This document shows, piece after piece, positions 56,006 to 64,000 of a stretch of 64,000 bases of DNA. The notes below the pieces were generated by a model. It made no database searches and was not told the DNA's origin. It worked only from the letters and a program-made list of their open reading frames with translations. The DNA is from Candidatus Hodarchaeota archaeon (GTDB taxonomy: Archaea > Asgardarchaeota > Heimdallarchaeia > Hodarchaeales > Hodarchaeaceae): NCBI GenBank assembly GCA_016839815.1, contig JAEOTM010000187.1, positions 37,214 to 101,213 on the forward strand. Reading direction: 5' to 3'. The position numbers and the translations under genes are program-made. Position 1 is the stretch's first letter. Every line of letters starts with the position of its first letter.

Positions 56006-56097
56006 TATAATAGTTGTTACTCATATGGTAAGAAATAGGCATTAATAACTCTCTTTCTTTGATTTTTGTAGAAGTTTTTTTTTCCGAAGTGGATACT

Positions 56098-58419
56098 ATG
56101 GCTGTAGGTAAACGTTTAAAGCGGAAAGATGCAGATACTAAAGTAACTGGAGAAGCTCCTTATGCATATGATCTTTCATTCGCAGATGAACATTATTTGA
56201 AAGTAATCCGGAGCCCCTATGCCCATGCGCGAATTTTAGAGATAAATATCGATTATAAGAAACTTGAAGCTCTCAATGTTACGTCAGGAACAGTCAAGGA
56301 TATTCCAGAAAAGGGAAAAAATATCTTACATGTGATTCATGATGACTGGCCTTTACTCGCAGAGGAAGTCGTAAGACATGTAGGAGAACCTGTAGTAATA
56401 TTAGTAGGAAAGACATTGAAGTCGGCAGAAGATGCGAGTAAGTATGTATCAATAAAATATGAAGAATTACCAGTAGTATTTGATCCTGTAGAGGCGAAAG
56501 ATCATCCTACCATACACATCTTTGAGGAAAATAACGTTTGTTCCCATTGGCAGCAGAAGAATGGTGATGTCGAAAAGGGATTTGCGGAATCAGATATAAT
56601 AATCGAGAATGAATACCGAACACCAGCGCAGGAACATGCATACATCGAGACTCAAGGGTGTATAGCTGTCCCACAAGGAAATGATTCCATCACTGTATAT
56701 GGAAGTATGCAATGTCCTTTTTATGTCCAGCGGTGTATAGCCGAGGTACTTGGATTAGACTGGAGTAAAGTTAATATTATACAAACAACCACTGGAGGAG
56801 CCTTTGGTGGAAAAGAAGACGTTCCTAATCAAATAGGTAGTCTCGCCGCCCTTGGATCGTGGTTGATTAGAAAGCCAGTGAAATATATTCTGACGAGGGA
56901 AGAAGATATTGAGACAACATCGAAAAGACACCCAGCAGTCATTCGGTACAAAACTGGAATTACAAAAGCAGGTGAACTGAAAGCAATTAAGGTGGAAGTC
57001 TTTCTAAATACAGGAGCTTATGCAACGCTTGCACCCGCTGTTCTTTATCGAGCTGCAATGCATGCAGCTGGGCCATATCGATGTGAAAATGTAGATGTTC
57101 AGGCGTATGCAGTCACAACAAATCTTGTACCTTTTGGAGCGTTTCGGGGCTTCGGTTCTCCCCAAGTTCTATTTCCAGCAGAAGAACAGATGGATCGTGC
57201 CGCTGAAAGCATTAAGATGGATCCAAGCGATTTTCGTGAAATGCATATTCTCAAAGTCGGTGATAAAACTACATTTGGCCAAACATTGCATCAATCTGTG
57301 GGTTTAGAAGAAACTCTAAAGAAAGCACGAGAAGAAAGTGAGTGGTATAAAAAACGAAAACCAACCCCAACTATAAAAGAAGTATTAACTGATCAGAAGA
57401 AAGGAATTTACCGTCGAAGAGGAATTGGGATTGCCACAATATTCTACGGATGCTTCTTAGGAGCAGCAGGGAAGATTATGTCACGATCTGGTGCTTATGT
57501 TCAAGCAGAACCAGATGGAAGTGTTCGATTTGCGGTGGGAACTACAGAAATGGGACAAGGGATGATCACAGTTCTATCCCAGATTGTAGCTGAAGAGCTT
57601 GGAATCGAATATGAAAGAGTTCATATGACCCCTGTAGATACAAGCCGTGTTCCTGATTCAGGCCCGACTGTTGCTAGCCGTGCAACCATTATGTCGGGCC
57701 GTGCACTTCAGAATGCCTGTGAAAAACTTCGTGCCCTCATTTATGAAAAAGTTGCAATGAAATATAATGCAAATACCAGTGATTTACTGATTAAGGATTA
57801 TGAAATTCAAGATCAATCCACACAGAAGGTAATACTCTCAGTTACTGATGCGATAAAGTTAGTTTATCAAGAAAGAGGTCAAGTCGCTGTTGCTGGATGG
57901 GATGTTGCACCATCGACATCTTATGATAACGAAAAGGGGCAAGGAGATGCATATTCAGCCTATGCCTGGTGTACTAATATTGTAGAAGTCGAAGTTGACT
58001 CACAAATAGGAACAGTTGATATTTTAAATATATGGGCTGCTCATGATGTAGGAAAGGCGATAAATCCGCAAACTCTTGAAGGGCAGATAGAAGGAGGAAG
58101 CTTGCAGGGTTTAGGTTACGGACGGTATGAAGAAATTATATTTACACCTAAAGGACGAGTGTTATCCAATAATTTGGGAACATATTTGATCCCCACAACG
58201 AAGGAAACTCCCAAAATTCATTCCATCATTATTGAGGATCCTTGGTCCGAAGGCCCTTATGGAGCGAAAGGAATCGGGGAGCAACCATTAATGGGCATTG
58301 CCCCTGCTCTAACGAATGCTATTACCAATGCTGTGGGTATAAGATTGAATGCAATTCCAGCTACTCCTGAACGAGTGTGGGCGGCTATTCAAGAGAAAAT
58401 TAAGGAGGAAGAAAAATGA
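56098..58419 (+). CDS. Xanthine dehydrogenase family, molybdopterin-binding large subunit
   Basis: GGAFGGK, AFRGFG, EMGQG, GAKGIGE; start set at the ATG at 56098. Confidence 0.92.
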   Translation: MAVGKRLKRKDADTKVTGEAPYAYDLSFADEHYLKVIRSPYAHARILEINIDYKKLEALNVTSGTVKDIPEKGKNILHVIHDDWPLLAEEVVRHVGEPVVILVGKTLKSAEDASKYVSIKYEELPVVFDPVEAKDHPTIHIFEENNVCSHWQQKNGDVEKGFAESDIIIENEYRTPAQEHAYIETQGCIAVPQGNDSITVYGSMQCPFYVQRCIAEVLGLDWSKVNIIQTTTGGAFGGKEDVPNQIGSLAALGSWLIRKPVKYILTREEDIETTSKRHPAVIRYKTGITKAGELKAIKVEVFLNTGAYATLAPAVLYRAAMHAAGPYRCENVDVQAYAVTTNLVPFGAFRGFGSPQVLFPAEEQMDRAAESIKMDPSDFREMHILKVGDKTTFGQTLHQSVGLEETLKKAREESEWYKKRKPTPTIKEVLTDQKKGIYRRRGIGIATIFYGCFLGAAGKIMSRSGAYVQAEPDGSVRFAVGTTEMGQGMITVLSQIVAEELGIEYERVHMTPVDTSRVPDSGPTVASRATIMSGRALQNACEKLRALIYEKVAMKYNANTSDLLIKDYEIQDQSTQKVILSVTDAIKLVYQERGQVAVAGWDVAPSTSYDNEKGQGDAYSAYAWCTNIVEVEVDSQIGTVDILNIWAAHDVGKAINPQTLEGQIEGGSLQGLGYGRYEEIIFTPKGRVLSNNLGTYLIPTTKETPKIHSIIIEDPWSEGPYGAKGIGEQPLMGIAPALTNAITNAVGIRLNAIPATPERVWAAIQEKIKEEEK

Positions 58420-58871
58420 TTATTAGAATTACGATAAACGACAAATTCATTGTAAGAGATGTGTCCCCAAATCGACGATTATTGGATTTCTTAAGGGAAG
58501 ATTTAGGCCTTAAGGGAACGAAATATGGATGTGACCAAGGAGAATGTGGGGCGTGTTCAGTAATTCTAAACGATAAAATTGTTACCTCGTGCATTGTTCT
58601 AATGGCTCAAATACCTCTTAACAGCACTGTACTGACGATAGAAGGAAAAGATCCCACATTGCAGTTACTCCAAGAAAAATTCATGGAATTTGGCGCCGCT
58701 CAATGCGGAGCTTGCACTACAGGCATGTTAATGGCTGCTACGTCCCTTCTTCATCACAATTCTCAAGCTAATCAGGAAGAAATAGAAGAGGGTTTATGTG
58801 GAGTGTTGTGTCGCTGTACAGGCTACACTAAAATATATGATGCCGTTAAGGAGGCCCAAAAACATCTCTAG
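58416..58871 (+). CDS. Xanthine dehydrogenase family (2Fe-2S) small subunit
   Basis: GCDQGECGACSV, QCGAC, LCRCTGY. Confidence 0.92.
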   Translation: MIIRITINDKFIVRDVSPNRRLLDFLREDLGLKGTKYGCDQGECGACSVILNDKIVTSCIVLMAQIPLNSTVLTIEGKDPTLQLLQEKFMEFGAAQCGACTTGMLMAATSLLHHNSQANQEEIEEGLCGVLCRCTGYTKIYDAVKEAQKHL

Positions 58872-58879
58872 GTGGTATT

Positions 58880-59683
58880 ATGAGAAATCTCTTCATGTTA
58901 ATTGACCAAGAAATCAATGCTGGTAAACCAGTATCTTTAGTAAGTGTGGTTGATGTAAAAGGTTCGGCACCACAGCGAGTAGGTGCTAAAATGCTTGTTT
59001 CTGCTACTGGAGAATTATTATGGGGAACTATAGGAGGAGGAACAGTTGAATCTCTAGCGTTAAAACAGGCAAAATATCAAATTGAATCGAAAATACCCAT
59101 CCTGAAGACTTTTGAGCTACAAGAATCAGGCGAGGATGCAACTGGCATGTTGTGTGGTGGAGAGATGCAGTTATTCTTTGATGTATTTGGGACTTCAATA
59201 AAGGTGTTCATCTTTGGTGCGGGCCATATTACTCAACAAATATTGCCATTGCTCATGAAATTAGGATATACTCCTATAGTAATTGATGATCGGGAAGAAT
59301 ATCTGAAACAACATATTATATCAAGATTTAATGTCGCTACATATACTGGGGATTTTCTAGAAATCATAGAATCCCTGTTTATTGAACAAGATAGTTACAT
59401 CGTTATTTTGACTTATTCTCATGATATGGATGAGAAAATTCTATTTCATCTTCTCTCTCAGAAAATTTCGGATCTTTCTACAATAAAATATTTGGGAATG
59501 ATTGGTAGTAAACGAAAAGTGAAAGAAATCTTTTCTCGATTGGAGTCCAAAGGCATTTCTCGTGAGACTCTAGATTCTATTCATTCACCAATAGGAGTTC
59601 CTATAAACAGTCAAACCCCTGAAGAAATTGCGATTTCAATAGCTGCAGAATTAATATCTGTGCGCAATAAGGAGGAAAAATAA
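58880..59683 (+). CDS. xdhC: XdhC/CoxI molybdoenzyme maturation factor
   Basis: GTIGGG, CGG, FGAGH, YLGMIGS, TPEEIAISIAAE. Confidence 0.9.
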   Translation: MRNLFMLIDQEINAGKPVSLVSVVDVKGSAPQRVGAKMLVSATGELLWGTIGGGTVESLALKQAKYQIESKIPILKTFELQESGEDATGMLCGGEMQLFFDVFGTSIKVFIFGAGHITQQILPLLMKLGYTPIVIDDREEYLKQHIISRFNVATYTGDFLEIIESLFIEQDSYIVILTYSHDMDEKILFHLLSQKISDLSTIKYLGMIGSKRKVKEIFSRLESKGISRETLDSIHSPIGVPINSQTPEEIAISIAAELISVRNKEEK

Positions 59684-59684
59684 A

Positions 59685-60548
59685 GTGTACACAAATGAAA
59701 TCCTCTCACCTGCGAGTATAGAAGAGGCTCTAACGCTAAAGGATCAATATGGAAGTGAAATCTATCCCCTCGCTGGTGGAACAGATGTTCTAGTAATGGT
59801 ACGAAATAAGCTAGGAGTATGGGGTGACTCACCTCCTCTGTTGAATCTTAATACCATCCCAAATCTTAACGTTATTCAAGAAACTGAGGATAGTATCGAA
59901 ATTGGTCCGTTAGTCACTCATACTCAAGTTCTAGAAAGTCCTCTTGTTAAAAAATTTATTCCCACATTAACTAAAGCTGTGTCTATCATTGGTTCACCTC
60001 AAATACGTAATTTAGGTACAATTATTGGGAATATATGTAGAGCTTCTCCTGCTGCTGATACATTAGCTACGTTATATTCACGAGAAACATTAATACAAGT
60101 CCAAACGGTAAATAGTTTAGAATTGGTCCCCATTAACAAATTCATAACTGGTCCAGGTCTGATCGACATTCCTAAGAATGGATTAGTCACTAAACTTGTT
60201 GTTCCCAAGTTAGAAGGATATCAAGGTGACTATATTTCATTAAGACAGAGATATGCACTATCAATAGTTGTTGTTTCCATCGCAGTTGAGGCCCTTCTGG
60301 TGAAAGAAGAATCAAGAATTGAGGATATTCGAATTTCGTTAGGAGCTGTTGCACCCACCATAGTCCGAGCTACCCAAACAGAACACCTTCTAAAATCCCA
60401 ATTGTTTACCAAGGAATTAATCGAACAAGCCGAAGGGCTGATTGTAGAGGAAACTAAACCTATCACTGATATTCGGTCAAATAAACGTTATCGAAAAGCG
60501 ATGACTGGAGTCCTTCTTGGACGAATATTGAAAAGCCTTTTACCCTAG
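59685..60548 (+). CDS. Xanthine dehydrogenase family FAD-binding subunit
   Basis: LAGGTD, QIRNLGTIIGN, ASPAAD, PITDIRS. Confidence 0.92.
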   Translation: MYTNEILSPASIEEALTLKDQYGSEIYPLAGGTDVLVMVRNKLGVWGDSPPLLNLNTIPNLNVIQETEDSIEIGPLVTHTQVLESPLVKKFIPTLTKAVSIIGSPQIRNLGTIIGNICRASPAADTLATLYSRETLIQVQTVNSLELVPINKFITGPGLIDIPKNGLVTKLVVPKLEGYQGDYISLRQRYALSIVVVSIAVEALLVKEESRIEDIRISLGAVAPTIVRATQTEHLLKSQLFTKELIEQAEGLIVEETKPITDIRSNKRYRKAMTGVLLGRILKSLLP

Positions 60549-60580: not shown

Positions 60581-61282
60581 ATGAATGTGAAGAAGTTTTC
60601 AGTTGCTGAGTTTCGCAATGATATGATAATCGAAGATGATGTTTGGATTAATGGAAGTTCTACCGCTTATGGACAGTTCAGAGCATTTTCACTTATTCTC
60701 GATGATAACTTCCAAGTACAGAATGAATTAAGAACCTCTAAAGGCAAAATCGAAGCAAAAGGAGATCTAATTGTGGGAATGGATCTTATTTCTGCTGATG
60801 ACATAATCGTACAGAAGAACTGTCGAGTTGGTGGAAATATTAATGGGGGGAAAATAAGGCTATTTGGTCTGAATAATTCTGCAGTATCCATTGGAGCGTC
60901 TACCTTACACCTAGAGGGTAACATAAACGTACAAAGTGGTATTACTGCTTCGGAATCTATATTTCTCTTTTTAAATCCTAGAAGATGGTCAGTGAATATC
61001 GGGGGGATAATAAAAGCCCCTTTCATAACAATTAAATTTGTGGGTTTTTTTACTAAATGGACATTACTCTCAGACAAGATTTTTAGAAGAGTTGGAAGAA
61101 ATGATATTAGAGTAAAAAGACAGTTCGATCTTGGGAATTTAAAAATTTCAACAAAGAAGCTCATAATCAAAACACGTTTTCCTCCTGAAAGAGTAGAAAT
61201 CCTATCAAATCAAGCAGAAATAATTGCTGATGAAATCGAAATTATTCAAGTTGATGACACTCAAATTATGATGGGAGACTGA
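60581..61282 (+). CDS. Polymer-forming (bactofilin-like) beta-helix protein
   Basis: Repeating short beta motifs (VWINGS, IEAKGDLIVG, CRVGGNING, LHLEGNINV). Confidence 0.5.
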   Translation: MNVKKFSVAEFRNDMIIEDDVWINGSSTAYGQFRAFSLILDDNFQVQNELRTSKGKIEAKGDLIVGMDLISADDIIVQKNCRVGGNINGGKIRLFGLNNSAVSIGASTLHLEGNINVQSGITASESIFLFLNPRRWSVNIGGIIKAPFITIKFVGFFTKWTLLSDKIFRRVGRNDIRVKRQFDLGNLKISTKKLIIKTRFPPERVEILSNQAEIIADEIEIIQVDDTQIMMGD

Positions 61283-61534
61283 AGGTACAACGAGAAGTAT
61301 AATCTTCTGGATAATAAATAAGGCTTATAGACCATTACTTTTTGCCAGGATACTTTTTAATTAAATGAAGATTTGTTAAGATCTTTAATAGGCTTGGTTA
61401 GACATTCAGGGCATGATACAAATTAAATCAACCATATAATGCTCCTTCATATTCCTAGAGAGTCTACATTTAAAGAATTAATTCTCTCATATATAAAGAA
61501 AAATTAAAATCCATATTTTTATACGAGAAGACGA

Positions 61535-63676
61535 TTAGAAAAGCTTTTCATCATCTAGGAGTAGATTTAAATATTCCTTCAGCTTATCCGAGGTCTCTTC
61601 TTTCTTTTCTTCATGTTTTCTGGTAGCTTGCGGGTCTGAAATTTCCTTAAATTGCATGGCGGTTTTTATTGAAGCATGAATAATCTTGCATGCAAATCGG
61701 ACTGATCCCGCTGATTCTATAGGAATTTGCATTGCTTCTTTCAATAATTTTTCAAGTTGGAGCTCTGATATTGTTTCAGAAATGTGTGCCTGTCCAATAG
61801 GAAATCCTCGTTGAGTGAAACTGAGGATAAATCCCTTTTTTACAGATTCTAGATTAAAAGCAACTTTTTCACTATCTGGAAGTAAAAGATTGTTTCCACT
61901 AGTTTCTAACTCGATTGGAATTACAAATTCAACTAGATCCGCTCTAACTCCAGTTTCACTTCGAATTCTTTTTGTAGTGACATCCTTCGTAGAGCTAATT
62001 TTCCTAGCCTTTAACTGTCTGATTGATTCATAAATTATTTTTGCAGCGAAATACATTGATGAAATACCATCTTCAAAAACGCCAATACTCATAAAGTTCT
62101 TTTCATAGGCTAGTAAGTAAAGGATTTCCTCTTCAGTTGCTTCAGACGAAACTAAAGAACTTCCAATCAATTCTTTTTGACCCATACTACTCCGTAGCTG
62201 AAAAGAAATAAGAGCATTAAAACCATCATCAACTAAATCTACTTTAAAGCCCATACCCTGAGTATTTGGTAATGCAATAACCCCTTCGCTGCTTTCCATT
62301 TCAACTGGAACATCTAAATGTGCATATTCTACTGTTTTCTTTTTTACTTCTATCTCTTTCCTTTGAACTATTTCTTTAGAAGGTATGATATATGCTTGAA
62401 CTATTTCTCTTATACTAAATTGTGGTTTTTCAGATGCTAATACTAAGCATTTGACAATATCTTCTTCATTTAATTCTCCCTTAAGAATCAATGAAAATAA
62501 TCCAAGAAGTTTATTGTGATCAATAGTCCGATACTTTTCTTCCCCTTGAGATTTCTCAATAAATGGTAAGTACTTTAAGAATATATCACTTACTAACGGT
62601 ACAGGCATTCCAGAAGTAACACCCATTTCAAATAATTGATTCCATCCACTATTTACAAGTTCATTAGCTTCTCCAAAACCGATACGATAGAATTCAATTA
62701 GGTGATTAACTTCAACCGAACTAGTCGGAGGAGTCAATTGAGGTTCAAATTCTCCAGAAATTTCTTTAAGCGGTGGTGAAGTTAAGCTTTTTGCTTCTAT
62801 TTCTTCTAAATTGGGATCTCTGTGTATTAGGGTTGTTTCTGAAATAGATTCTTCGCTTGCTGCACTACCAAGAAAGACTTTAGCTTCGTCAGAAACATCA
62901 TTAGATGTCTTCAAAGATTGTTTCATAAGAAAACGCAATTTCTCTACAACGGTAGTATCTTCATCCGATTCTGTTGGTATTAGTCGTGTTTGAGCTATGG
63001 TAGCTACTGGTTCAATTTTATCTGCTAGTGTCATCTTAATTTCATGATGTTCCTCTATTTCCCCAATTAATCGGCCATTTACAAAGTCGCTTTGAGAAAG
63101 CTCTGGAAGACAAAGTTCAAAAATTCGTCCAAACGTATCAATAACACTTTCAGGTTTAAAAATTGTGGTTCTAAAAAATTTCAATTGATTTGAACATTCA
63201 ATTTGGAATTGTTCCTTTAATTGCTCATGAATTGATTCATAATTAGGGCTATTTCTAATTAAATCATTCTTGTGTAAGAATACGAAGATATTGGCTGTTG
63301 GAGAGAATTTGTTCAATTTTTCTAAACAAGCTGTGAAATATTGAATTGAGTTATTTCGTGATGTTTTATTTGCAACATCAATTAGAAAAATAAATATTTT
63401 AACATTACTAAATACAAATGGACTAAATCCACTTAGAAACCGTTGTAAAAAGATCTTTTGTCCACCCAAATCGACAATAGTGACTGGTACATCATTCACT
63501 GTGAGAGACAATCTCTCGTAATTAATTGTTGCAGAAAGTTTATTCACGTCTTCGGTTTGCTGCTTTAAAAAGAAAATTCGTTTTACCGCAGTTTTTCCTG
63601 CCTCACTCAAACCAGCAATTAGGATTTTATATCCAAGTTGTTGAGAAATCTCGGACTCCGAAACCCATCGTGACAT
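61535..63676 (-). CDS. Paralog of the long Rag-family GTPase at 11598..13793
   Basis: Same GLSEAGKTAVKRIFF, SATINYERL, DLGGQ and HKND motifs and the same C-terminal architecture; start set at MSRWVS by alignment (track start 63682). Confidence 0.88.
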   Translation of the reverse strand: MSRWVSESEISQQLGYKILIAGLSEAGKTAVKRIFFLKQQTEDVNKLSATINYERLSLTVNDVPVTIVDLGGQKIFLQRFLSGFSPFVFSNVKIFIFLIDVANKTSRNNSIQYFTACLEKLNKFSPTANIFVFLHKNDLIRNSPNYESIHEQLKEQFQIECSNQLKFFRTTIFKPESVIDTFGRIFELCLPELSQSDFVNGRLIGEIEEHHEIKMTLADKIEPVATIAQTRLIPTESDEDTTVVEKLRFLMKQSLKTSNDVSDEAKVFLGSAASEESISETTLIHRDPNLEEIEAKSLTSPPLKEISGEFEPQLTPPTSSVEVNHLIEFYRIGFGEANELVNSGWNQLFEMGVTSGMPVPLVSDIFLKYLPFIEKSQGEEKYRTIDHNKLLGLFSLILKGELNEEDIVKCLVLASEKPQFSIREIVQAYIIPSKEIVQRKEIEVKKKTVEYAHLDVPVEMESSEGVIALPNTQGMGFKVDLVDDGFNALISFQLRSSMGQKELIGSSLVSSEATEEEILYLLAYEKNFMSIGVFEDGISSMYFAAKIIYESIRQLKARKISSTKDVTTKRIRSETGVRADLVEFVIPIELETSGNNLLLPDSEKVAFNLESVKKGFILSFTQRGFPIGQAHISETISELQLEKLLKEAMQIPIESAGSVRFACKIIHASIKTAMQFKEISDPQATRKHEEKKEETSDKLKEYLNLLLDDEKLF

Positions 63677-63911
63677 CTTCAATTTTATCCTTGTGTATTG
63701 AGTGACAATTACAAATCAGAGAAGATTATTATTCAATATATTCATGTTTAACTGTGATTAACATTTTAATAAGACTTCTAATTAACTCATCCGAAATTAA
63801 TTGGGAGAATCTATTTATAATTATTGATATTATCATGCAAATTAGTAATTAGTTAAAATTTCCCTGAAGGTAAATACTTCACTTGAATTCAGAGAAGTGT
63901 TGTGAGTATAA

Positions 63912-64000
63912 ATGCAACAGACTAATCAACCTAATAAAGTATTATTCATGGGATTGGGAGCAAGTGGAAAAAGTAGCATTAGATCGATTGTATTTGAAGG
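63912..64000 (+). CDS. 5' end of a second RagA/Gtr1-like GTPase (partial, runs off the window end)
   Basis: Manual translation MQQTNQPNKVLFMGLGASGKSSIRSIVFEG is nearly identical to the N-terminus of 14110..15006. Confidence 0.85.
   Translation, partial: MQQTNQPNKVLFMGLGASGKSSIRSIVFE

What the first reader, a model, noticed from the sequence alone, without database searches (positions are those of the whole stretch)
61535..64000. The divergent Rag pair is duplicated as a unit ~50 kb away
A paralog of the long Rag (61535..63676, minus strand) again sits head-to-head with a RagA-like gene. Its start (63912, not in the ORF track) encodes LFMGLGASGKSSIRSIVFEG, identical to the first copy. The G-domains are highly conserved, while the linker and intergenic DNA have diverged. 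This indicates an old duplication with selection on the paired arrangement and supports the two Rags being a functional unit. Here the long Rag is convergent with a bactofilin-like gene rather than the receptor.
Basis: seen in the sequence. Interest (0 to 1): 0.75.

Follow-up and report, generated by a model that had tools for sequence, protein, structure and literature searches.

The report
Second Rag GTPase gene pair
An Asgard archaeon (Hodarchaeales) carries two old copies of a head-to-head pair of Rag-type GTPase genes, and across its genus the two genes are inherited, copied and exchanged together, which gives matched pairs for testing whether they work as one switch.

Summary
Window 61535-63676(-) encodes a 713-aa long Rag, 48% identical to the first copy (11598-13793). 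Head-to-head at 63912(+) a short Rag begins. Only 29 codons are present because base 64000 is the end of the contig; it is not a mutation. Sister species have this gene intact (298 aa).

In 32 loci of the genus, long and short Rags give the same well-supported clades (Mantel r=0.89; 16 of 17 nearest neighbours agree). A 16-nt intergenic motif is shared by both copies. The pair was therefore copied whole, at least twice.

Single-pair relatives have one locus with a folliculin-like gene, the receptor and a CetZ-like tubulin operon. In two-pair species, copy 1 keeps the folliculin-like gene and receptor. Copy 2 keeps the tubulin operon, which relatives show beyond the contig end; no recognisable longin gene lies there.

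One result was unexpected. Copy 2 has dS 0.29-0.40 between three species whose other genes show 1.0-2.4. That points to recent exchange of the cassette between species.

Physical interaction of the two Rags is inferred, not shown. The long Rag has no roadblock domain. The scan had already noted copy 1 and the long Rag.

The parts
61535..63676 (-). Long Rag GTPase, copy 2 (type B), 713 aa, stop codon included
   Evidence: ORF. Pfam Gtr1_RagA at E 8e-32. 48% identical to copy 1. 87-88% identical to orthologues in YT1_021 and YT2_065. Clade B has support 99/98.
63110..63631 (-). G domain of long Rag 2 (residues 16-189). G1 GLSEAGKT, G3 DLGGQ and G4 HKND are all intact.
   Evidence: AF2 model. Best structural match is the Asgard LokiRagO structure 8yl2_A, Z 18.6. 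The motifs are invariant in alignment A2. dN/dS against copy 1 is 0.065.
62723..63049 (-). Disordered linker (residues 210-318), the most diverged coding part
   Evidence: pLDDT 25-38. 31% identity between the copies, omega 0.44.
62387..62722 (-). Helical domain (residues 319-430)
   Evidence: Eight helices, pLDDT 71-87. In copy 1 the same region gives a weak GatE helical-domain hit, E 7.5e-5.
61625..62341 (-). Two homologous beta/alpha repeats (residues 446-562 and 563-684), found only fused to Rag G domains
   Evidence: hhalign of repeat 1 against repeat 2: 98.5%, E 1.5e-15. No similarity to the short Rag or its C-terminal domain. A profile search of 1.84 billion representatives found only Rag-fused proteins, plus spurious LRR matches.
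63677..63911 (.). Divergent intergenic region of copy 2 (235 bp, 25% GC)
   Evidence: 94% identical to YT1_021 and 86% to YT2_065.
63770..63785 (-). 16-nt motif TTAATTAGAAGTCTTA, 93 nt upstream of the long Rag ATG. It is shared with copy 1.
   Evidence: The motif occurs only twice in the window, once in each spacer; 0.01 matches are expected by chance. It is present in orthologues of clades A and B. The pattern was derived from these two sites.
63912..64000 (+). Start of short Rag copy 2 (29 codons and two bases), cut by the contig end
   Evidence: 87 of 87 nt are identical to the intact 298-aa gene of YT1_021.
11598..13793 (-). Long Rag, copy 1 (type A), 731 aa
   Evidence: Clade A has support 100/100.
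13860..13875 (-). The same 16-nt motif in the copy 1 spacer, 66 nt upstream of the long Rag ATG
14110..15006 (+). Short Rag, copy 1, 298 aa
   Evidence: Pfam Gtr1_RagA at E 2.3e-36. 64-66% identical to the copy 2 orthologues.
60581..61282 (+). 233-aa beta-solenoid-like gene convergent with long Rag 2. It is a neighbour, not part of the cassette.
   Evidence: Homologues in 13 of 21 genomes of the genus. Sub-threshold Bactofilin and FapA hits. Absent at this place in YT2_065. Its dS against YT1_021 is 1.6, the background value.

Best explanation
This is the second copy of a two-gene Rag GTPase module in a Hodarchaeales (Asgard) genome.

Each module has two genes sharing a short divergent promoter region. 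One is a canonical short Rag of about 298 aa, with a RagA/Gtr1-like G domain and a Rag-type C-terminal domain. The other is a long Rag of 713-731 aa. It has an intact G domain, but in place of the roadblock domain it carries a disordered linker, a helical domain and two family-specific beta/alpha repeats.

Shown: the long and short lineages split once. After that, the whole pair, spacer included, was copied or moved as a unit several times within the genus, and the partners co-diverged.

Shown by synteny: relatives with a single pair have one locus that carries both neighbour sets. These are a folliculin-like gene with a giant receptor, and a CetZ-like tubulin operon. In species with two pairs the sets are divided. 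Copy 1 keeps the folliculin-like gene and the receptor. Copy 2, inverted, keeps the tubulin operon.

Shown: the copy 2 cassette was later exchanged between three species.

Inferred: the two Rags act together as one nucleotide-dependent switch, probably as a heteromer formed in a non-canonical way. After duplication, each copy became dedicated to one input or output.
For: - Family membership. Gtr1_RagA matches the long Rags, the short Rag and the copy 2 orthologue. The nearest solved structures are Gtr1/RagA and Asgard LokiRag.
- Copy 2 short Rag in relatives. It is intact at 298-301 aa in YT1_021, YT2_065 and FT_5_011. The YT1_021 start is identical to the window's fragment.
- Single origin of the pair. 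In a joint G-domain tree the 28 long Rags fall on one side of a branch (99*) and the 23 partner short Rags on one side (94).
- Co-divergence. The same clades A, B, C, D1, E and L056/L067 appear in both trees. Mantel r=0.89, and 16 of 17 nearest neighbours agree.
- Arrangement. 25 of 32 long Rags have the divergent short partner within 158-594 bp.
- Shared spacer motif.
- Selection. omega is 0.06 for long A, 0.024 for short A, 0.18-0.24 for long B, and 0.05-0.12 for short B.
- Partition of neighbours. Genomes G002 and G013, which lack pair B, also lack its tubulin gene.
- Co-absence. Neither the long Rag nor the partner-type short Rag was found in G006 and G010.
- Cassette exchange. dS is 0.29-0.40 for both genes in all three species pairs, against 1.0-2.4 for more than 15 background genes, including genes on the same contigs.
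Against: - No interaction, expression or activity data exist.
- The long Rag has no detectable roadblock domain, so the canonical way Rags dimerise is not available.
- Both partners are RagA/Gtr1-like. Neither is RagC-like.
- Adjacent genes co-inherit whether or not they interact, so the mirrored trees alone do not prove a complex.
- Seven long Rags lack an adjacent short Rag, and several partner-type short Rags are orphans.
- The order of clades A, B, C and D is unresolved. AU tests do not reject A+B as sisters (p=0.27) or A+L051 (p=0.18), so the date and place of the duplication are open.
- In this genome the second short Rag is known for only 29 codons.
- The species tree rests on one marker.
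Confidence: 0.65

Rival explanations
1. Copy 2 is not a duplicate made in this lineage. It is a xenologue: a Rag-pair cassette, perhaps with the adjacent tubulin operon, acquired by lateral transfer from a related Hodarchaeales species and still moving between species. The pair would still travel as a unit.
For: - dS is 0.29-0.40 for the cassette against 1.0-2.4 for the background in all three species pairs.
- The jump in identity coincides with an indel at window 60581-61502.
- Window 63400-64000 is 95-100% identical to YT1_021.
- Pair B and its tubulin gene are both missing from the sister species G002 and G013, where ABC transporter genes follow the beta-solenoid gene.
- A type B pair exists in FT_5_011, outside the window's species clade.
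Against: - Pair B sits next to the same tubulin operon that flanks the single pair of other species, which fits vertical descent of an old locus.
- The low dS can equally come from homologous recombination at a locus that all three species already had.
- Loss in G002 and G013 explains their absence as well as gain does.
- The A/B split itself is old in any case.
Confidence: 0.3
2. The two Rags are only neighbours that share a bidirectional promoter. They are co-regulated and co-inherited through tight linkage, but they act separately. For example, the short Rag could act as a homodimer and the long Rag as an independent scaffolded GTPase.
For: - The long Rag has no roadblock domain.
- Orphan long Rags and orphan short Rags exist.
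- Solved Asgard Rags include a homotetramer and a monomer, by the PDB titles of 8yl2 and 8zla.
Against: - The adjacency survived several duplications, an inversion and a transfer, while the surrounding genes were reshuffled.
- Stem-branch lengths of the six clades rise together in both genes. Spearman correlation is about 0.76 with n=6, computed by hand, and is weak.
- Neither partner was found in the two genomes that lack the other.
Confidence: 0.25
3. The end of the contig is an assembly or binning artefact, and the second pair belongs to another organism.
For: - The cassette lies at the contig end.
- Its dS differs from that of the rest of the contig.
- Per-run contigs of the source samples carry several variants of the cassette, 3-9% divergent, while pieces from the flank are identical.
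- The YT1_021 copy sits on a 3.7-kb contig.
- The MAG has 7.8% contamination.
Against: - In YT2_065 the same cassette lies inside a 47-kb contig, directly next to the same four-gene flank as in the window.
- One per-run piece, 61812-62020, is identical to the window.
- At 48% and 64% identity to copy 1, this cannot be a collapsed or duplicated repeat.
Confidence: 0.07

Closest known systems
Eukaryotic Rag heterodimer (RagA/B-RagC/D; yeast Gtr1-Gtr2)
   Same: Two paralogous Gtr1/RagA-family GTPases are kept together. The short partner aligns over its full length with Gtr1/RagA chains.
   Different: Both partners are RagA/Gtr1-like and neither is RagC-like. The long partner has no roadblock domain and carries unrelated C-terminal domains instead. 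Heterodimer formation is untested. By the published RagGtr phylogeny, the eukaryotic A/C split lies on the eukaryotic stem (10.1101/2024.02.28.582541), so this duplication is independent of it.
Rag-like gene pair in an operon of the Lokiarchaeon MK-D1 (Tran et al. 2024, PMC10933270)
   Same: Both are adjacent pairs of Rag-like GTPase genes in an Asgard archaeon. That paper predicts a Gtr1/Gtr2-like heterodimer.
   Different: The MK-D1 genes are co-directional, and both proteins have roadblock domains, through which the predicted dimer forms. Here the genes are divergent, one partner lacks the roadblock domain, and the pair exists as several co-diverging paralogous copies.
Solved Lokiarchaeota Rag-like GTPases LokiRagO (8yl2) and LokiRagM (8zla, 9m28)
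   Same: They are the best structural match for the long Rag G domain: Z 18.6, rmsd 2.3 over 165 residues. They also match the short Rag profile.
   Different: They are single proteins of about 340-385 aa, described in their PDB titles as a homotetramer and a monomer. They have no long C-terminal extension. I found no paper on them in the library.
Copy 1 of the same module in this window (earlier scan notes e1-5649367 and e1-5649370)
   Same: Same architecture in both genes, same head-to-head layout, and a shared spacer motif.
   Different: Identity is 48% for the long Rags and about 64-66% for the short Rags (via orthologues). The neighbours differ: receptor and folliculin-like gene for copy 1, beta-solenoid gene and (in relatives) a CetZ-like tubulin operon for copy 2. 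Only copy 2 shows recent exchange between species.

Membership tests
Gtr1/RagA GTPase family (Pfam PF04670) | G domain scores above the family's gathering threshold | tested here: met
   Long Rag 2 scores 110.9 bits and long Rag 1 scores 105.2 bits; short Rag 1 scores 125.8 bits. The cut-off is 22. The copy 2 short orthologue scores 131.6 bits. The window's own 29-codon fragment is too short to score.
Gtr1/RagA GTPase family (Pfam PF04670) | Intact nucleotide-binding motifs (G1 P-loop, G3 DxxGQ, G4 HKxD) | tested here: met
   Long Rags have GLSEAGKT, DLGGQ and HKND, invariant in 25 sequences. Short Rags have GLGASGKS, DCGGQ and HKxD, invariant in 22 sequences.
Canonical Rag architecture (G domain plus C-terminal roadblock domain) | C-terminal roadblock-fold dimerisation domain | tested here: inconclusive
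   For the short Rag, Foldseek aligns about 300 columns to full-length Gtr1/RagA chains at E 3e-12. However, the C-terminal part of the model has pLDDT 25-55, and HMM alignments stop near residue 200.
Canonical Rag architecture (G domain plus C-terminal roadblock domain) | The long Rag also carries a roadblock domain | tested here: not met
   The model shows a linker, a helical domain and two beta5-alpha2 repeats. The repeats are homologous to each other but show no profile similarity to the short Rag (probability 0.2%). Structural searches covered the G domain only, so a very remote fold relationship is not excluded.
RagA/B-RagC/D type heterodimer | One RagA/Gtr1-like subunit and one RagC/Gtr2-like subunit | tested here: not met
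   Short Rag: Gtr1 at 2e-25 against RagC at 4e-11. Long Rag: RagA at 4e-19 against RagC at 1e-5.
RagA/B-RagC/D type heterodimer | The two proteins form a physical heterodimer | not testable with these tools
   The structure tool folds single chains only. Only genetic linkage and co-divergence were measured.
Bactofilin (PF04519), for the neighbour at 60581-61282 | Score above the Pfam gathering threshold | tested here: not met
   13.8-18.7 bits against a cut-off of 27.9 in the window protein and three orthologues. FapA scores about 17 bits against a cut-off of 31. The hits fall on the same region each time, so a beta-solenoid fold is plausible.

The most novel reading that the evidence does not exclude
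The paralogous pairs are insulated two-GTPase switches. Each long Rag recognises only its own short Rag, through the family-specific repeats instead of a roadblock domain. One pair reads a surface receptor through folliculin-like proteins. The other controls a CetZ-like tubulin filament system. The whole cassette can move between species. This would be a prokaryotic precedent for Rag paralogue specialisation, in the archaeal group placed closest to eukaryotes.
Probability: 0.2. Interest if true: 0.8.

Novelty: new variant of a known kind. Interest (0 to 1): 0.55.

Why it matters
Rag GTPases work as obligate heterodimers in eukaryotic nutrient signalling, and how that two-GTPase logic arose is not known. 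This Hodarchaeales genus offers naturally matched long and short Rag pairs, in up to three paralogous versions per genome. Partner specificity can therefore be tested directly, cognate against non-cognate. The way the neighbour genes are divided after duplication points to two candidate connections: folliculin-like proteins with a receptor, and a tubulin-like cytoskeleton. The low dS of one cassette is also a clear case of recent gene flow between Asgard species that involves eukaryote-signature genes.

Tried and rejected
- Continuation of short Rag 2. tblastn of the whole assembly found no continuation on another contig. The orthologues of the tubulin operon are also missing from it; only paralogues on C147 are present.
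- The protein atlas did not hold the window's protein. With the B3_Heim homologue, no structural neighbour exceeded TM 0.31.
- The AF2 model of the short Rag was poor in its C-terminal part.
- The wide structural search with the 713-residue model reported only G-domain matches.
- Sequencing runs: no RNA holder was listed. Per-run contigs were too fragmentary to bridge 61.2-61.8 kb or to extend past 64000.
- Downstream longin gene. The 312-aa gene of the tubulin operon gave no significant profile match to the folliculin-like family (E 0.31) or to the receptor tail (E 0.035, probability 1.4%). This was left open.
- An apparently truncated long Rag in bin272 is an assembly gap, seen as a run of X. 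It is not a pseudogene.
- Multi-stretch hits of the repeat profile are LRR proteins and were judged spurious.
- No paper on the LokiRag structures was found in the library.
- dN/dS between the two copies is unreliable because dS is saturated (2.9-4.1, or undefined). Orthologue comparisons were used instead.
Full report
**Where the window lies.** The window is G000:C168:37214-101213. C168 is 101213 bases long, so base 64000 is the physical end of the contig. Titles of related records place the organism in the Hodarchaeales (Heimdallarchaeia, Asgard). The genus includes Ca. Hodarchaeum mangrovi FT_5_011, B3_Heim and the closed genome bin6, CP070695.

**The observation.**
- The ORF at 61535..63676(-) encodes 713 aa from the ATG. 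It matches Pfam Gtr1_RagA at E 8e-32.
- It aligns end to end with the first long Rag (11598..13793, 731 aa) at 48% identity.
- By region, identity is 76% in the G domain (48 of 200 residues differ), 31% in the linker and 43% in the C-terminal part.
- At 63912(+), 235 bp from the long Rag's ATG, an ORF begins. It contains the 20 residues LFMGLGASGKSSIRSIVFEG, identical to the first short Rag at 14110..15006.
- Only 29 codons are present, because the contig ends there. tblastn found no continuation anywhere in the 206 contigs.
The question of whether the ORF is truncated cannot be settled in this assembly.

**The orthologous locus.**
- Three relatives carry orthologues of copy 2: YT1_021 (long Rag 88% identical), YT2_065 (87%) and FT_5_011 (67%). 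In all three, an intact divergent short Rag of 298-301 aa lies next to the long Rag.
- The YT1_021 gene begins with the same 29 residues as the window's fragment, and the 87 nucleotides are identical.
- The orthologue matches Gtr1_RagA at E 3.9e-38.
- Its profile finds Gtr1/RagA at 7e-34 and RagC/Gtr2 at about 1e-15.
- A low-confidence model of it aligns over about 300 columns with full-length Gtr1/RagA chains.

**The long Rag.** The model shows the following parts.
- A G domain at residues 16-189. Its best structural match is the Asgard LokiRagO structure 8yl2, Z 18.6.
- A disordered linker at 210-318.
- A helical domain at 319-430.
- Two beta5-alpha2 repeats at 450-558 and 569-680.
- A terminal helix.

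The two repeats are homologous to each other (hhalign 98.5%, E 1.5e-15). They show no profile similarity to the short Rag. A profile of repeat 1, run against 1.84 billion representative proteins, found only proteins with an N-terminal Gtr1_RagA domain, plus spurious LRR matches. The C-terminal region has 41 relatives among 5.8 billion proteins, all of them long Rags from Hodarchaeales.

**Is the pair copied as a unit?** I collected 32 long-Rag loci with up to 10-kb flanks.
- 25 of the 32 have the divergent short partner, 158-594 bp away.
- In a joint G-domain tree, all 28 long Rags fall on one side of a branch (99*) and all 23 partner short Rags on one side (94). The long/short split therefore came before every duplication of the pair.
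- Separate trees give the same clades: A (window copy 1, YT2_065, MAG_8, B3_Heim; 100/100), B (window copy 2, YT1_021, YT2_065, FT_5_011; 99/98), C, D1, E (long Rags of 560 aa with a single repeat) and L056/L067.
- Pairwise distances of partners correlate (Mantel r=0.89, p=2e-4), and 16 of 17 nearest neighbours coincide.
- In the three genomes with two complete pairs, partners group by pair type and not by genome.
- A 16-nt motif occurs in the window only in the two spacers, 66 and 93 nt upstream of the long Rag start codons. It is kept in orthologues of A and B but is absent from the other clades. The motif was derived from these two sites, so its count in the window is partly circular. Its conservation in other genomes is not.

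**Selection.**
- Between the two copies dS is saturated, so those ratios carry little weight.
- Between orthologues, omega is 0.06 for long A, 0.024 for short A and 0.18-0.24 for long B. For short B it is 0.12 (YT1_021 against YT2_065) and 0.05 (YT1_021 against FT_5_011).

**Distribution.**
- A long Rag was found in 19 of the 21 other genomes of the genus. It was not found in G006 and G010.
- The partner-type short Rag was not found in G006 and G010 either, nor in G008.
- Genomes carry zero to three pairs.
- There are also orphan long Rags and orphan short Rags.

**Neighbours.**
- In single-pair species (bin6, WORE3, DZ1M_253) one locus reads as follows: a folliculin-like gene, the short Rag, the long Rag, and then, convergent, a tubulin-family gene, a 1141-aa helical protein, a 311-aa protein and the giant receptor.
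- The tubulin-family gene matches Pfam Tubulin at 8.5e-19. Its closest solved relatives are 4b46 and 4b45, which I recall to be CetZ proteins.
- In two-pair species, copy A keeps the folliculin-like gene and the receptor. Copy B keeps the tubulin operon, with the Rag pair inverted in place.
- By synteny, the tubulin operon is what should follow base 64000.
- G002 and G013 have pair A only, and they also lack the tubulin gene that goes with pair B. In G002 the syntenic flank runs from the beta-solenoid gene into ABC transporter genes.

**An unexpected result.**
- On one marker, G000, YT1_021 and YT2_065 are distinct species, with dS 1.2-1.4.
- More than 15 background genes, including those flanking copy 2 on the same contigs and both genes of copy 1, give dS 1.0-2.4.
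- Both genes of copy 2 give dS 0.29-0.40 in all three species pairs.
- Nucleotide identity jumps from 78% to 89% at an indel: window 60581-61502, holding the beta-solenoid gene, is absent in YT2_065. Identity reaches 95-100% against YT1_021 over window 63400-64000.
- The cassette has therefore been exchanged between species since they diverged, by transfer or by recombination.
- Per-run contigs from the source samples hold several variants of the cassette, 3-9% apart. This may be why assemblies break here.
- A chimeric contig end is unlikely, because YT2_065 has the cassette inside a 47-kb contig next to the same flank.

**Timing.** The order of clades A, B, C and D is unresolved. AU tests do not reject A+B as sisters (p=0.27) or A plus the divergent FT_5_011 pair (p=0.18). 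The split is old, but I cannot say whether it arose by duplication within this lineage or by an ancient transfer.

**Mechanism.**
- Shown: the two genes form a heritable, duplicable and transferable unit under purifying selection.
- Inferred: they act together as a two-GTPase switch, and each copy is dedicated to one neighbour set.
- The canonical roadblock-to-roadblock dimer is not available to the long Rag, and both partners are RagA-like. Any complex would have to form in a different way.

**Comparison with published work.** The literature I could search describes Asgard Rag-like GTPases and one co-directional Rag pair in MK-D1 that is predicted to dimerise through roadblock domains (PMC10933270). 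It also places the eukaryotic RagA/C split on the eukaryotic stem (10.1101/2024.02.28.582541). I found no description of the long Rag or of paired paralogous copies.

Noticed in passing
L064:12265-19827, L065:12271-22199 and L042:309-6099 (relatives); own genome C147:11193-16099: A conserved operon lies next to the Rag pair in seven species. It holds a 311-aa protein, a helical protein of about 1140 aa and a CetZ-like tubulin-family protein. The window's own genome has a paralogous couple of the helical and tubulin genes on contig C147 (54% identity for the tubulin).
   Followed up: partly
window 61503-64000 compared with L041 and L042: The copy 2 cassette has dS 0.29-0.40 between three species whose background dS is 1.0-2.4. 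This is recent gene flow between species, limited to the cassette. The left border falls at an indel.
   Followed up: yes
window 60581-61282: A 233-aa beta-solenoid-like gene (sub-threshold Bactofilin and FapA hits) is present here in G000, G002 and probably YT1_021, but absent in YT2_065. Homologues occur in 13 of 21 genomes of the genus.
   Followed up: partly
L059, L060, L062 (type E long Rags, 560-564 aa): This subfamily of long Rags has only one of the two beta/alpha repeats. Each still sits head-to-head with its own short Rag clade.
   Followed up: partly
window 56059-60548: Four co-directional genes look like a xanthine or CO dehydrogenase-family set: a 786-aa molybdopterin subunit, a 151-aa 2Fe-2S subunit, a 267-aa XdhC-like protein and a 287-aa FAD subunit. 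This was judged by eye only. They are syntenic in YT1_021, YT2_065 and G002.
   Followed up: no
L052:3627-10259 and L054:2252-8614: In two species a long Rag is separated from a very divergent short Rag-like gene by a co-directional gene of 1022-1065 aa with no recognised family. This is a different layout of the module.
   Followed up: no
L069:9995-10702 (bin272 chromosome): The long Rag looks truncated at 235 aa, but the reading frame runs into a stretch of N (masked or a gap). It should not be counted as a pseudogene.
   Followed up: yes
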